Shown here in pieces: positions 25,001 through 28,000 of a stretch of DNA of 64,000 bases. The DNA comes from Escherichia coli. Its GTDB lineage: Bacteria > Pseudomonadota > Gammaproteobacteria > Enterobacterales > Enterobacteriaceae. A program made the position numbers. Position 1 is the first letter of the stretch. Each line of letters opens with the position of its first letter. The stretch lies in the NCBI RefSeq assembly GCF_041886205.1, contig NZ_CP169029.1; one strand, written 5' to 3'.

Positions 25001-28000
25001 AATATCGCGGGCCGCGTTAATCTGGCTGGCGGTATCCTGTGTGATGTTTTTCGCGGCAAGCGTTACATCCCGGCCGGCAGTCAGTTTTTCATTCTGTTGA
25101 GTGATTCTGCCGCCGGCGGTCAGGCTGAGGTCCTTGTCGCTGTTAAGCGTTCCATTGCTGAGAACGATATCGCTCCGGCTGCTGACGCTCAGGTTACCTC
25201 CCGCTTTATGGTCGCCGGTTAAGGTGACGCCCTGACCTTTTGCAGTGACGGCCCCCGTGGCGAGACTGTTGTTGACAGTCAGTCTGCCGCTGGCATCCAG
25301 GGTGATATCGCCATCGCGGGCATAAAGGTTACCAAGATTAACCCCGACACCACTTTCAGTGGAGGTCAGATGAATACGCCTGGCGTACATTCCACCGAGC
25401 GCGCCGGTATCAACGGCAACTTTCGGCACATCACCTTCGCCCTTCAGTGCACTGACACGACCATCTGCAGTTATCCGGTTAGCGCCTGCAGTGACAGTTA
25501 AATCCTTCGCATGAAGCGCGGCATTCACTTCCGTTGCACGGGCAATAATGGATACGGCATCGCTCCGGGTGCCGTCCAGGCCCGCGCCATTGATGGTGAT
25601 ACTGCCTTCAGTCACCTCCAGCGCCTGCAGGCTGCCGTCGGCATTCATCACAGGTCTGCCTGTGGTGAGCGTCGCGTGCGGCGTGTTGATAAAACCACAG
25701 CCGTCACAGGTGATACCATACGGGTTGGCAACCATCACATTCGCCGCTTTGCCGGCCACTTCCGTATAGCCCTGCAGCAGTGAACGGTTACCGCCGGTCA
25801 CTTCGTTGATGATACCCTTCGCTTCCCCGCCCGCTTTCAGGTTCGGGTTATTCTGTATCAGTCCACCAAGCTGCGTCGGATTAAGCTTAGCGGTGGCATT
25901 ATTGAGAATCAGCCCTTCCTTCCCGACGTTGTAATCCGTAAACCGGTTATGCGAAATCCCGGCCCCGTTCGGCGTGGCAATGTTCACGACCGGCACACCA
26001 TTTGCCGCTTTATCCATTCCGGCCCCGTTTTGTGGGGTGATGACGGCCCCCACAGCCGGTAACAACGGCTGCCCGGCGATAATCGCACTGACCAGGTAAC
26101 TCAGCAGGCGGTAAGTGAAGTGAACGGGAGGCTGATTCATGGTAATAATCCCTTAAAACGCGACGGCAACGCGCCAGTAAACCGTGAGATGGTCAGGGGC
26201 AAGCCAGTCCGGGTAAACCAGAGGCAGCCCGGCAGTGAACGAACCGGAAACATAGTCACTGGTGGTGCTGAGCCCGGCAGCACCACCCCACAGCGTGCCG
26301 GACGAGTACGGGTCATCTCTGTCAGAGTGCAGCCAGCCGCCGTCCAGTGCAGCCACTGCACGGACAGTTCCCACATATGGCAGGGAGAACAGAGACCAGG
26401 ACAGCTCATTTCGCAGATAACCGCCGTTATTACCGGAGATATACTGCTCCTTAAAGCCACGCACTGAACTCTCACCCCCGAGGCTCAGTTGTTCCACACC
26501 ATGAAGACGGTCCGGTGACCACTGGGCATAAGCGCTGGTCAGCCACCACACCCTGTCCGTGACGGGGCGCTGAAAACTGGCACTCACCGACCATTTCCGG
26601 AACTGATTTACGGGCAGGTCTCCCCTTTTCCCGTGGTCGCTTTCTGCGCCGAACCAGGGCATCCCCCGTGTGAATACCGGATTCAGTGTTCCGACACCCC
26701 CCAGAAACTTGTGTGTGTGATTCAGCCCGACAGAAAATGAAGTGAGTTTACGGCTGCTGCCCTGAAGCAGAACATCATCCAGATAATTGTGAATAATGCG
26801 GTGCTGCAGACCTCCGGTCAGTGCTGTCTTCATGTCCCCGTTACGGAACAGGACATGCGACAGTCCCAGCCGGTGAGTCTGCAGGTCTCCCGTGGAACGC
26901 CACCGCCAGCCCCGGTTATCAATGGTGCTGAGGTAGTCACTCCATGAATACGTATAATCCACCAGGGTATAGCCATACGGCAGACTGACACCGGCGGCAA
27001 AATTCCTCGCATCATGTGACACCGAAAAGTCACTGCTCCGTCCCCCGCTGACAAACCAGTTGTCAGCCAGCCCCAGCGGATTATTAAAGGAAAGGACACC
27101 ATTTAACTGCCCCGTACCGGTATTCTTCTGCCCGCTGTTGTCGATACCCACGCTCCCTGTGACGGGCCATTCCGGCAATGCCGTCAGTGTCACCACCGAC
27201 CATCCCTCACGGTCACCGGGCGATATTTCAATCTGTACCGGCTCCGTACGCAGACGATTAATCTGCTCCATCCCCTGCTCAATATCCCGCAGGTTCAGAA
27301 CCTTCCCCTCCATTCCCGGGAAAACCATCTTCAGGGTGCGGGCAGGAAGGTCAGCGCCTTCCGCCCGGATTTGCTGCAGCCTGCCTTCCATGACCGTTAT
27401 GTGCAGTACGCCCCCTGAAAGGTCCTGCTCTGTCAGAAAGGCCCGGCTGGTGATATATCCCCGGCGTATATAGCCGTCCGTCACGGCATCCGTGACCGCA
27501 GTCAGGCCGGTGATATTCAGACACTGATTCACCCACGGTGCCACCAGTCTGTCGGTTTCTGCAGACGTCAGTCGGGTGGCCCCACTGACAACAATGCGTG
27601 ACACCGTAAAGCAGGGGCCTTCAGTACCGGCAGACGTTTCCGGAGACGGCGTGATAGTCAGCGGCGCACTGCGCTCCAGCGCATCACGCTGACGCTGGTT
27701 TTCATCCAGCAACTGCTGCTGTTGCTGCTGAATTGCACTGCGGTCACCCGGAGACAGCATGGCTGCCGGAGACGAAAACGAAAGAATGCAAAGGCAGGAG
27801 AGGAGGGGAAAATAGCGTGCCACCGGAGAGAAAGTGCGGAGCTTAAATGCGCACTGACCGGAAACCATACCAGGCAACAAATTTCTGTTCGCCAGTAAGT
27901 TATCCTGCCGGTGCTGCATATTCTCCTCGTGTCGTGGGTATTCAGTGTAAATTAACGTAAGCGGAATGTCAGTGCTGAAATTTACACCAGATAAAAAACA

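What the first reader, a model, noticed from the sequence alone, without database searches (positions are those of the whole stretch)
27945..27987. Perfect 9-bp inverted repeat in the cdiB leader
GTGTAAATT and AATTTACAC separated by 25 bp lie immediately upstream of cdiB; the geometry suits a dimeric regulator binding site or a leader RNA hairpin controlling CDI expression.
Basis: seen in the sequence. Interest (0 to 1): 0.3.

Follow-up and report, generated by a model that had tools for sequence, protein, structure and literature searches.

The report
Conserved inverted repeat bracketing the cdiBAI promoter
The 9-bp inverted repeat just upstream of cdiB is real and is kept almost unchanged in every Escherichia contact-dependent-inhibition locus examined, where it brackets the likely promoter, so it is probably a control site for an operon whose regulation in E. 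coli is still uncharacterised.

Summary
**Observation: confirmed.** GTGTAAATT (27945-27953) and AATTTACAC (27979-27987) are perfect complements 25 nt apart. They lie 26-68 nt upstream of the cdiB ATG (27919, minus strand).

**Chance.** As a lone repeat it is weak evidence: about 8 such repeats are expected by chance in 64 kb.

**Conservation is the real evidence.**
- All 114 Escherichia cdiB upstream regions sampled keep both arms and a CTGACA hexamer between them.
- This holds across promoter classes that are otherwise only 56-59% identical.
- 80 cdiB loci from other genera lack the module.

**Most likely reading (about 0.45).**
- CTGACA, 16-18 nt, then TACACT form a conserved sigma-70-type promoter.
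- The arms flank its -35 element and overlap its -10 element.
- They would act as paired sites for an unidentified host protein that gates RNA polymerase access.
- The arm centres are 33-35 bp apart, too far for one classical dimer.

**Rivals.**
- A hairpin at the 5' end of transcripts from an upstream promoter found in class 1 only. It is strong in the common allele (-14.1 kcal/mol, z -3.7) and weak in this window (-8.9). There is no compensatory covariation in the arms.
- Independent promoter elements that happen to be complementary.

No start-site or regulator data were found. I rate this an ordinary kind of element, not described in the papers searched, of moderate interest.

The parts
27979..27987 (.). 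Distal arm. It reads GTGTAAATT in the cdiB direction, at about -50 to -42 relative to the predicted P-a start.
   Evidence: TGTAAATT is invariant in 37 of 37 distinct upstream sequences; the first base is G in 29 and A in 8.
27945..27953 (.). Proximal arm. It reads AATTTACAC in the cdiB direction, and its last five bases belong to the candidate -10 hexamer.
   Evidence: AATTTACAC in 36 of 37 distinct sequences and AGTTTACAC in 1.
27967..27972 (-). Candidate -35 hexamer CTGACA of promoter P-a, lying inside the repeat's spacer.
   Evidence: Promoter scan. It is the only invariant block in an otherwise diverged spacer. CTGACA in 36 of 37 and CTGACG in 1.
27944..27949 (-). Candidate -10 hexamer TACACT of promoter P-a, 17 nt after the -35 hexamer.
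   Evidence: TACACT in 36 of 37 and TACACA in 1. The -35/-10 spacing stays at 16-18 despite indels. Sequence conservation ends just after this hexamer.
27936..27938 (-). Predicted P-a transcription start (inferred, not mapped), giving an 18-nt leader.
   Evidence: Inference from the position of the -10 hexamer. No start-site data were found.
27923..27928 (-). Ribosome-binding site GAGGAG upstream of the cdiB ATG (27919-27917).
   Evidence: Sequence. G(A/G)GGAGAA(T/C)ATG is conserved in all classes.
27997..28025 (-). Alternative upstream promoter P-b: -35 TTTACA at 28025-28020, 17-nt spacer, -10 TATGTT at 28002-27997. Its predicted start, about 27992-27989, lies at the foot of the hairpin.
   Evidence: Its score equals that of P-a in class 1. 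It is weaker in EC93 cdi-1 (CTTACA) and absent from classes 2 and 3.
27979..27984 (-). Alternative -10-like hexamer TAAATT inside the distal arm (promoter candidate P-c). The matching -35 is TTCTGT at 28007-28002 in the window.
   Evidence: Position-weight scan. The position is conserved in all classes, with scores of 7-11. The hexamer frequencies came from memory.
28042..28052 (-). Upstream conserved block ATCACATTTCT, followed by a second CTGACATT copy at 28043-28036.
   Evidence: ATCAC.TTT.T is invariant between classes. The direct repeat AATGTCAG was found.
27920..28076 (-). The whole conserved cdiBAI upstream module, about 157 nt. Homology between differently located loci ends at about 28076.
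   Evidence: Alignments A1 and A2. The region is an AT-rich trough of 37-38% GC against 53-62% in cdiB.
26153..27919 (-). cdiB, the two-partner-secretion outer-membrane transporter and first gene of the operon controlled by this region.
   Evidence: Pfam ShlB 2.3e-90 plus POTRA_2 and POTRA_3. The annotation of an identical stretch names it, with cdiA next to it.

Best explanation
The repeat is a selected DNA-level part of the cdiBAI core promoter that is shared by Escherichia CDI loci.

**Layout, read towards cdiB (minus strand):**
- distal arm GTGTAAATT (27987-27979)
- 6 nt
- CTGACA (27972-27967)
- 13 nt
- proximal arm AATTTACAC (27953-27945); its last five bases plus the next T give TACACT (27949-27944)
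- a length-variable stretch of about 20-31 nt that carries the ribosome-binding site
- the ATG (27919)

**Proposed mechanism.** CTGACA/17 nt/TACACT is the sigma-70-type promoter, with a predicted start near 27937. The arms therefore flank the -35 element and overlap the -10 element. I propose that they are two identical, oppositely oriented contact sites for an unidentified host-encoded DNA-binding protein. This would be two units or an oligomer, not one dimer. Bound to both arms, it would cover or clamp the -35/-10 region and so gate RNA polymerase access, most simply by repression.

**Shown:** the repeat exists, it is conserved, it coincides with conserved promoter-like hexamers, and the hexamer spacing is kept at 16-18 nt.

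**Inferred:** that this promoter fires in vivo, that a protein binds the arms, and the sign of the regulation.
For: **Conserved blocks.** Three blocks (TGTAAATT, CTGACA, A.TTTACAC) are essentially invariant in 114 instances and 37 distinct sequences. This holds across promoter classes whose 170-nt upstream regions are only 56-59% identical, although their cdiB genes are 92-98% identical. The clustering of invariant columns was matched by only 10 of 20000 column shuffles.

**A promoter-like footprint.**
- The sequence between CTGACA and the proximal arm diverges completely (TTCCGCTTACGTT against CTTTTTGACATG).
- The hexamer spacing stays at 16, 17 or 18 nt even where indels occur.
- Conservation stops right after TACACT, and what follows varies in length (20, 24 or 31 nt to the ATG). 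This is the pattern expected downstream of a -10 element.
- CTGACA/TACACT is the top or second-ranked promoter candidate in 8 of 9 class representatives.

**The symmetry needs a cause.** Two conserved blocks that are 8-9 nt reverse complements of each other are not expected from -10 and upstream elements alone.

**A trans-acting host factor fits the neighbours.** The genes upstream of cdiB differ between loci (small ORF plus ECs1377-family protein, DprA, transposase, methyltransferase), so no regulator is linked in cis.

**Literature.** Most chromosomal E. coli cdi loci are described as tightly regulated and silent in laboratory media. No start site or regulator is reported (PMC8190604).
Against: - No transcription start has been mapped, and the hexamer match alone is not significant: 2 promoter-like sites were found against 1.3 +/- 1.2 in shuffles.
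- The predicted leader would be short, at 14-25 nt.
- Arm-to-arm spacing varies from 24 to 26 bp, which changes the helical phase by up to about 70 degrees. That is awkward for a rigid protein bridging both arms.
- The half-site is not enriched elsewhere in the window: 14 matches with at most one mismatch, against 16.3 expected. No known regulator motif fitted.
- EC93 cdi-1 is highly expressed in laboratory media yet carries the identical repeat. The repeat alone therefore does not decide between silent and active.
- In one variant (GmM077) the -10 hexamer becomes TACACA.
- The common class-1 allele folds into a notably stable sense-strand RNA stem, which favours the RNA rival.
Confidence: 0.45

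Rival explanations
1. **RNA hairpin at the 5' end of the message.** Transcription starts from the upstream promoter TTTACA/17/TATGTT, at about 27992-27989. The two arms then pair in the mRNA and form a stem-loop at its very 5' end. Such a stem-loop would protect the long cdiBAI transcript (over 11 kb) from 5'-end-dependent decay. This is the established principle shown for the 5' stem-loop of ompA mRNA (recalled from memory). The hairpin would not control translation directly, because it ends about 17 nt before the ribosome-binding site.
For: - In the commonest class-1 allele (G at the equivalent of 27942) the sense strand folds into a 14-bp stem that includes two G.U pairs: -14.1 kcal/mol, z -3.66, with 0 of 200 shuffles as stable. 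The antisense strand is weaker: -10.2 kcal/mol, z -1.25.
- The predicted P-b start falls within 0-3 nt of the foot of that stem.
- P-b scores as well as P-a in class 1.
- The single arm substitution seen, A to G in plasmid A of strain M3, leaves a U.G pair.
- The outermost pair of the extended stem switches from A-U to U-A between classes.
- Class 1 (EC93 cdi-1) is transcribed about 4.5-fold more than class 2 (cdi-2), which lacks P-b (PMC8190604).
Against: - P-b is absent from classes 2 and 3, which keep the arms perfectly.
- The invariant CTGACA would sit unexplained in the loop.
- There are no compensatory changes in the 9-10 bp core. The G-to-A change at the first distal position gives an A.C mismatch in 8 of 37 distinct sequences, with no matching change.
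- The extended stem is not maintained. The A allele carried by this window makes up 20 of 59 class-1 instances and cuts the stem to 10 bp at -8.9 kcal/mol, z about -1.5. Class 2 gives -4.5 kcal/mol, z about 0.
- In a 93-nt context the window's fold is no better than shuffles, z +1.0.
- There was no significant Rfam match.
Confidence: 0.25
2. **Independent promoter elements.** The arms are separate promoter parts and their complementarity has no function of its own.
- The proximal arm is conserved because it carries the -10 hexamer TACACT.
- The distal arm is conserved either as an A/T-rich upstream contact for RNA polymerase (AAATTT at about -46 to -41), or as the -10 hexamer TAAATT of a second, tandem promoter about 34 nt upstream.
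For: - Both TACACT and TAAATT score as -10 hexamers with position-conserved partners in all classes.
- In GmM077 the first -10 hexamer is damaged, and there the second candidate has its best -35 hexamer (TTTACG, score 11.1).
- The AAATTT tract sits where the proximal UP-element subsite would be. That position is recalled from memory.
Against: - The chance that two independently constrained blocks are 8-9 nt exact reverse complements is of the order of 1e-4. This is an inference from 4^-8 multiplied by a few possible registers.
- The conserved proximal block extends upstream of the hexamer (AATT), exactly mirroring the distal arm.
- TAAATT has weak -35 partners in class 1 (TTCTGT, score 7.0).
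Confidence: 0.17
3. **Chance repeat with no function.** The repeat would be preserved only because the loci share recent ancestry.
For: About 8 perfect 9-bp inverted repeats with a spacer of 40 nt or less are expected by chance in a 64-kb window. About 4% of random intergenic sequences of this size and composition contain one.
Against: - The arms are invariant in promoter classes that are otherwise only 56-59% identical, while the sequence between them has been replaced.
- Indels in the spacer have left both arms intact.
Confidence: 0.03

Closest known systems
Repressor operators that overlap or flank the core elements of a sigma-70 promoter (for example LexA boxes, or paired operators such as those of lambda OR or gal OE/OI)
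   Same: There are inverted, identical recognition sequences placed so that a bound protein would cover the -35 and -10 hexamers. The arrangement is conserved as a unit with the promoter.
   Different: - Each classical operator is a compact palindrome bound by one dimer. Here single 8-9 bp half-sites lie 33-35 bp apart, with the -35 hexamer between them.
- No cognate protein is known.
- No copies were detected elsewhere.
TyrR box (TGTAAA-N6-TTTACA)
   Same: The half-site sequences are literally the same: TGTAAA in the distal arm and TTTACA in the proximal arm. The consensus is recalled from memory.
   Different: - The halves are 28-30 nt apart, not 6.
- Neither arm has a partner half at N6. 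I counted 1-3 of 6 matches by eye from the sequences.
- It therefore fails the defining spacing.
5'-terminal stabilising stem-loop of mRNA (ompA 5' UTR type)
   Same: If transcription starts at P-b, the arms form a stem within 0-3 nt of the 5' end. The stem lies well upstream of the ribosome-binding site, as in ompA.
   Different: - The start site is unmapped.
- The stem is AU-rich with a 25-nt loop.
- It is weak in this window's allele and in class 2.
- It is not supported by covariation.
fimS-type invertible promoter element (9-bp inverted repeats flanking a promoter-bearing segment)
   Same: There are 9-bp inverted repeats with a promoter element (the -35 hexamer) between them.
   Different: - The enclosed segment is only 24-26 bp, against 314 bp in fimS.
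- Only one orientation was seen in 470 genomes and 114 sampled instances.
- No recombinase is linked to the locus.
The putative cdi-1 and cdi-2 promoter regions of E. coli EC93 (Waneskog et al. 2021, PMC8190604)
   Same: It is the same regulatory region. EC93 cdi-1 carries the identical repeat, and cdi-2 carries the diverged class-2 form, ATGTAAATT-24 nt-AATTTACAC.
   Different: The main text of that paper reports only BPROM predictions and reporter levels. The passages I read, and a promoter search of its two held supplementary files, mention no inverted repeat, mapped start or regulator. The promoter figure itself (Fig. S7) is not held.

Membership tests
Sigma-70-type promoter | -35-like and -10-like hexamers, at least 9 of 12 matches, with A at position 2 and T at position 6 of the -10 hexamer, spaced 16-18 nt apart | tested here: met
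   CTGACA/17/TACACT gives 9 of 12. The spacing is 16-18 nt in all 37 distinct variants.
Sigma-70-type promoter | Hexamers conserved among diverged homologous regions while the spacer sequence is free to vary | tested here: met
   Alignments A3 and A4. CTGACA in 36 of 37 and TACACT in 36 of 37.
Sigma-70-type promoter | A transcription start mapped 6-8 nt downstream of the -10 hexamer | not testable with these tools
   No start-site data for E. coli cdiBAI were found in the papers searched.
Palindromic operator of a single dimeric helix-turn-helix regulator | Two inverted half-sites | tested here: met
   9 of 9 complementary in class 1 and 8 of 9 in class 2.
Palindromic operator of a single dimeric helix-turn-helix regulator | Half-site centres about 1-2 helical turns apart (roughly 10-22 bp) | tested here: not met
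   The centre-to-centre distance is 33-35 bp, from 24-26 nt spacers.
Palindromic operator of a single dimeric helix-turn-helix regulator | A cognate regulator identified or encoded next to the site | tested here: not met
   The upstream neighbours differ between loci. The adjacent 77-aa ORF and the ECs1377-family ORF have no Pfam DNA-binding domain.
TyrR box | TGTAAA and TTTACA separated by exactly 6 nt | tested here: not met
   The separation is 28-30 nt. No partner half lies at N6 for either arm, by inspection of the sequence.
Cis-regulatory or stabilising leader RNA hairpin | Both arms lie within the transcript | tested here: inconclusive
   This holds only if P-b is used. P-b is a class-1-only candidate and no start-site data exist.
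Cis-regulatory or stabilising leader RNA hairpin | The fold is more stable than shuffled sequence | tested here: inconclusive
   Window allele z -1.5 to -1.8. Common class-1 allele z -3.66. Class 2 z about 0.
Cis-regulatory or stabilising leader RNA hairpin | Compensatory base changes that maintain the pairs | tested here: not met
   In the 10-pair core there are 0 double-sided changes, and the outer G-C pair is broken in 3 of 9 sequences. The extended stem has one double-sided pair, with 10 of 500 shuffles reaching the same score; this is within the tool's stated false-positive range.
Cis-regulatory or stabilising leader RNA hairpin | A match to a curated RNA family | tested here: not met
   The Rfam scan of 27700-28700 gave only sroH at 16 bits against an 80-bit threshold.
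Intrinsic terminator | A G+C-rich stem followed by a run of T | tested here: not met
   The stem has 3 G-C pairs out of 9 and is followed by CTGAATACCC. The terminator scan reports nothing here.
Invertible promoter switch | Both orientations of the enclosed segment are found in populations | tested here: not met
   All 483 places were 95% identical or more in one orientation. All 114 instances have the same orientation.

The most novel reading that the evidence does not exclude
The two arms are the operator of a so far unidentified E. coli chromosomal factor that clamps the -35/-10 region of every Escherichia cdiBAI promoter. This interaction would be the switch that keeps most chromosomal CDI systems silent in laboratory culture and releases them under a natural signal. 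A variant of this reading adds that the same sequence also acts in RNA, as a 5' stabilising hairpin on transcripts from the extra class-1 promoter, so that one repeat serves at two levels.
Probability: 0.3. Interest if true: 0.55.

Novelty: new member of a known kind. Interest (0 to 1): 0.35.

Why it matters
CDI systems are widely studied weapons of bacterial competition, yet the papers available here report no mapped promoter, start site or regulator for the E. coli cdiBAI operon. One paper notes that most chromosomal loci are silent in the laboratory while EC93 cdi-1 is not.

This work defines a short module of about 45 bp: arm, -35 hexamer, arm overlapping the -10 hexamer. The module is invariant across otherwise diverged promoter classes. 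That gives a concrete probe for DNA pull-down or gel-shift experiments to find the regulator. It also gives a small set of point mutations that can separate DNA-level from RNA-level control.

Because EC93 cdi-1 carries the identical repeat, any cis-acting cause of its high expression should lie further upstream, not in the repeat.

Tried and rejected
- **Homologous upstream regions in other genera.** I fetched 80 cdiB loci from Enterobacterales species representatives. Neither nhmmer nor a fuzzy three-block search found the module. It appears restricted to Escherichia, so no deep covariation test was possible.
- **Rfam scan.** Nothing significant.
- **Terminator reading.** Rejected: there is no T run and the stem is AU-rich.
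- **Invertible switch.** Rejected: only one orientation is ever seen and the enclosed segment is about 25 bp.
- **Known regulator motifs, recalled from memory and compared by eye.** The TyrR box fails on spacing. No convincing fit was found for CpxR, CRP, MarA/SoxS/Rob, ArcA, IHF, LexA, MlrA, Lrp or a sigma-54 promoter. A Fis-like 15-mer (GGTGTAAATTTCAGC) and an H-NS-like motif (ACGTTAATTT) are weak, class-specific resemblances. None was tested with a proper matrix.
- **Half-site enrichment in the window.** None: 14 matches against 16.3 expected.
- **Linked regulator gene.** None is conserved, and the adjacent small ORFs have no Pfam hits.
- **Literature searches.** Eight searches for a mapped cdiBAI promoter, start site or regulator in E. 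coli found only BPROM predictions. A search of the two held supplementary files of PMC8190604 found nothing on the native cdi promoter; Fig. S7 itself is not held. One further paper requested by DOI is not held.
- **Genome annotation for context.** The genome that is identical around cdiB turned out to be colinear with the window, in the same register, only from about 25.2 to 36.4 kb. Its wider annotation therefore cannot be transferred to the window.
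Full report
**1. Observation**

On the + strand, GTGTAAATT occupies 27945-27953 and AATTTACAC occupies 27979-27987. They are perfect reverse complements with 25 nt between them, and the next inward bases do not pair.

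cdiB lies on the minus strand, 27919..26153. It encodes 588 aa with a ShlB domain (2.3e-90) and two POTRA domains. The same start is annotated, with cdiA next to it, in a genome that is 100% identical over this stretch. The repeat therefore sits 26-68 nt upstream of the cdiB ATG, inside a 367-nt intergenic region. That region is an AT-rich trough of 37-38% GC against 53-62% in cdiB.

As a bare pattern the repeat is not remarkable. The window has 22 perfect inverted repeats of 9 bp or more with a spacer of 40 nt or less, against 7.8 +/- 2.8 in first-order random sequence. About 4% of random sequences with the size and composition of this intergenic region contain one.

**2. Conservation within Escherichia**

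- The 531 nt around the site match 500 of 5426 complete E. coli genomes.
- The 53 nt spanning the repeat match 470 genomes, always at 95% identity or more. These include UPEC 536 and O157:H7 strains.
- I aligned nine loci from different genomic contexts: chromosomal islands, plasmids, and EC93 plasmid pCP127. About 157 nt upstream of the ATG are shared, and homology ends near 28076. Both arms are invariant, but so is much of their surroundings. This class-1 alignment therefore cannot single out the arms.

**3. Diverged promoter classes give a footprint**

The second EC93 locus, cdi-2, has a diverged version of the same region: ATGTAAATT, 24 nt, AATTTACAC. Relatives of it occur in 416 genomes, including Nissle 1917, and there are further sub-classes.

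Between classes the first 1200 nt of cdiB are 92-98% identical, with third codon positions 91-96% identical. The 170 nt upstream are only 56-59% identical.

Against that background, only short blocks survive:
- ATCAC.TTT.T
- TGAT
- CTGTT
- TC.G.TGTAAATTT (the distal arm)
- CTGACA
- A.TTTACAC(TG) (the proximal arm)

The clustering of invariant columns was matched by only 10 of 20000 column shuffles.

A metagenome scan anchored only on the ribosome-binding site and the first cdiB codons gave 110 matches. All true cdiB starts with enough flanking sequence carry the three core blocks; four of the matches with enough flank were unrelated chance hits.

Pooling these with the genome loci gives 114 instances and 37 distinct sequences:

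| Feature | Values seen among the 37 distinct sequences |
|---|---|
| Distal arm | GTGTAAATT 29, ATGTAAATT 8 |
| Proximal arm | AATTTACAC 36, AGTTTACAC 1 |
| Middle block | CTGACA 36, CTGACG 1 |
| Arm-to-arm distance | 24-26 nt |

The module was not found upstream of 80 cdiB homologues from other Enterobacterales genera (53-71% protein identity) by nhmmer or by a fuzzy motif search.

**4. What the blocks look like**

On the cdiB strand, CTGACA (27972-27967), 17 nt, then TACACT (27949-27944) is a sigma-70-like promoter, which I call P-a. Several features fit a real promoter:
- The hexamers are conserved, while the 12-14 nt between CTGACA and the proximal arm are completely different between classes.
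- Indels, mostly in a T run, keep the hexamer spacing at 16, 17 or 18 nt.
- Conservation ends immediately after TACACT. It is followed by a stretch of variable length (20, 24 or 31 nt) that contains the ribosome-binding site.

A simple position-weight scan ranks P-a first or second in 8 of 9 class representatives. The hexamer frequencies for that scan came from memory.

On this reading the predicted start is near 27937. The distal arm then lies at about -50 to -42 and the proximal arm overlaps the -10 hexamer.

Two other candidates exist:
- **P-b:** TTTACA (28025-28020), 17 nt, TATGTT (28002-27997). It scores as well as P-a but is present only in class 1.
- **P-c:** uses TAAATT inside the distal arm as its -10 hexamer, with position-conserved TTCnnn -35 partners. 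Scores are 7-11.

**5. DNA site or RNA hairpin?**

Evidence for RNA:
- In the commonest class-1 allele (G at the equivalent of 27942) the sense strand forms a 14-bp stem with two G.U pairs: -14.1 kcal/mol, z -3.66, 0 of 200 shuffles as stable. The antisense strand gives -10.2 kcal/mol, z -1.25.
- The predicted P-b start lies at the foot of this stem. That would make it a 5'-terminal stem-loop of the kind known to stabilise E. coli mRNAs (established knowledge, recalled from memory).

Evidence against RNA:
- The window's own allele (A at 27942) makes up 20 of 59 class-1 instances. It gives only a 10-bp stem at -8.9 kcal/mol, z about -1.5. In a 93-nt context it is no better than shuffles, z +1.0.
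- Class 2 folds at -4.5 kcal/mol, z about 0.
- The 10-pair core shows no compensatory change. The outer G-C pair is replaced by A.C in class 2. There is one U.G.
- The extended stem shows one A-U to U-A switch, but several of its pairs are broken. The score falls within the tool's stated false-positive range.
- P-b is missing in classes 2 and 3.
- The invariant CTGACA would lie unexplained in the loop.
- There was no significant Rfam match.
- The hairpin does not include the ribosome-binding site.

**6. Best explanation and rivals**

The reading that accounts for all three blocks and for the symmetry is a core promoter whose -35 element is flanked, and whose -10 element is overlapped, by two identical, inverted protein-contact sites. 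A bound protein would gate polymerase access.

The protein is unknown. The neighbours of cdiB differ between loci, so a host-encoded factor is more likely than a linked one. The 33-35 bp centre-to-centre distance excludes a single classical dimer and calls for two units or an oligomer.

| Explanation | Probability |
|---|---|
| Promoter with flanking, inverted protein-contact sites | about 0.45 |
| 5' hairpin in transcripts from P-b | 0.25 |
| Independent promoter elements with incidental symmetry | 0.17 |
| Chance repeat | 0.03 |

[quoted passage not shown] It also says EC93 cdi-1 is unusually active and about 4.5-fold stronger than cdi-2, and that only BPROM predictions exist for these promoters (PMC8190604).

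EC93 cdi-1 has the identical repeat. The repeat therefore cannot by itself explain the difference between silent and active loci. EC93 differs from most class-1 loci further upstream, at the equivalents of 28041-28010.

**7. Comparison with known systems**

- **Operators overlapping promoters.** The repeat works most like these, but it fails the geometry of a single-dimer operator.
- **TyrR box.** The half-sites are identical in sequence to TyrR box halves (TGTAAA and TTTACA), but the N6 spacing is not met.
- **ompA-type 5' stabiliser.** It resembles one only if P-b is used.
- **Intrinsic terminator.** It is not one.
- **fimS-like invertible element.** It is not one: only one orientation is seen and the segment is 25 bp.

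**8. Verdict**

This is a real, selected cis-regulatory element of the Escherichia cdiBAI promoter. It is an ordinary kind of element, it is not described in the papers I could search, and its mechanism is unresolved. Interest is moderate: it makes the open question of how E. coli controls CDI directly testable, but an inverted repeat in a promoter would not surprise a specialist.

Noticed in passing
L013 9468-9482 and the metagenome variants; equivalent to window 27954-27966: In class-2 and class-3 promoters the -35/-10 spacer contains a T run whose length differs between isolates (CTTTTTG, CATTTTTG, CATTTTTTG). This gives hexamer spacings of 16, 17 and 18 nt. It could tune promoter strength between strains.
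   Followed up: partly
L009 about 1603 onward; L101 (plasmid of E. coli mip270_04). Hits H66-H71 end at the same point.: An IS66-family element (ISCro1) is inserted inside the repeat's spacer, right after ...AAATTTCAGC. No cdiB follows it. The plasmid keeps only the upstream half of the cdi promoter module as a relic.
   Followed up: partly
window 27957-27964 (+ strand, GTAAGCGG): The class-1 spacer contains GTAAGCGG, which is identical to the first 8 nt of the ISCro1 end at the L009 junction. This may be coincidence (roughly 1e-3 by my estimate), or a trace of IS66 activity or targeting at this site.
   Followed up: no
window 27929-27938 (minus strand, CACGACACGA): The window's leader carries two tandem CACGA copies where most class-1 loci have one. 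The net change is +4 nt between the -10 candidate and the ribosome-binding site. The same allele appears in several metagenome contigs.
   Followed up: partly
window 27920-28090 against cdiB 26720-27919: Between promoter classes cdiB is 92-98% identical, but the upstream 170 nt are only 56-59% identical. This suggests a recombination boundary near the start codon, or much faster turnover of the control region.
   Followed up: partly
window 28033-28052 (minus strand): A second (C/T)TGACATT copy lies 71 nt upstream of the first, preceded by the inter-class invariant block ATCAC.TTT.T. It may be a second regulatory site or a relic of a promoter duplication. The GATC present here in many loci is AATC in this window.
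   Followed up: no
window 33000-57999; tRNA at 57864-57948: The core genes to the right of the island (fiu, ybiO, ybiB) match the best E. coli genomes at only 93-95% identity. The host may therefore be a divergent or non-coli Escherichia lineage. The cdi region from about 25.2 to 36.4 kb is colinear, in the same register, with E. coli GXU-23-25-310 and nearly identical to it (100% identical from about 28 to 36 kb). A tRNA-Ser(GCT) gene lies at 57864-57948.
   Followed up: partly
window 16361-26140 (minus strand): The cdiA ORF here is 3259 aa. It ends 210 nt further along than the cdiA of the genome that is identical around cdiB (16571 in the same register). Colinearity with that genome is lost to the left of about 25.2 kb. 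This is consistent with a different C-terminal toxin and immunity module.
   Followed up: no
window 28287-28520 and 28617-29276 (minus strand): A 77-aa ORF with no Pfam hit and an ECs1377-family protein lie just upstream of cdiB on the same strand. The same pair recurs upstream of cdiB in several other loci, including UM146, EC11 and M22546. Their function is unknown and no DNA-binding domain was detected.
   Followed up: partly
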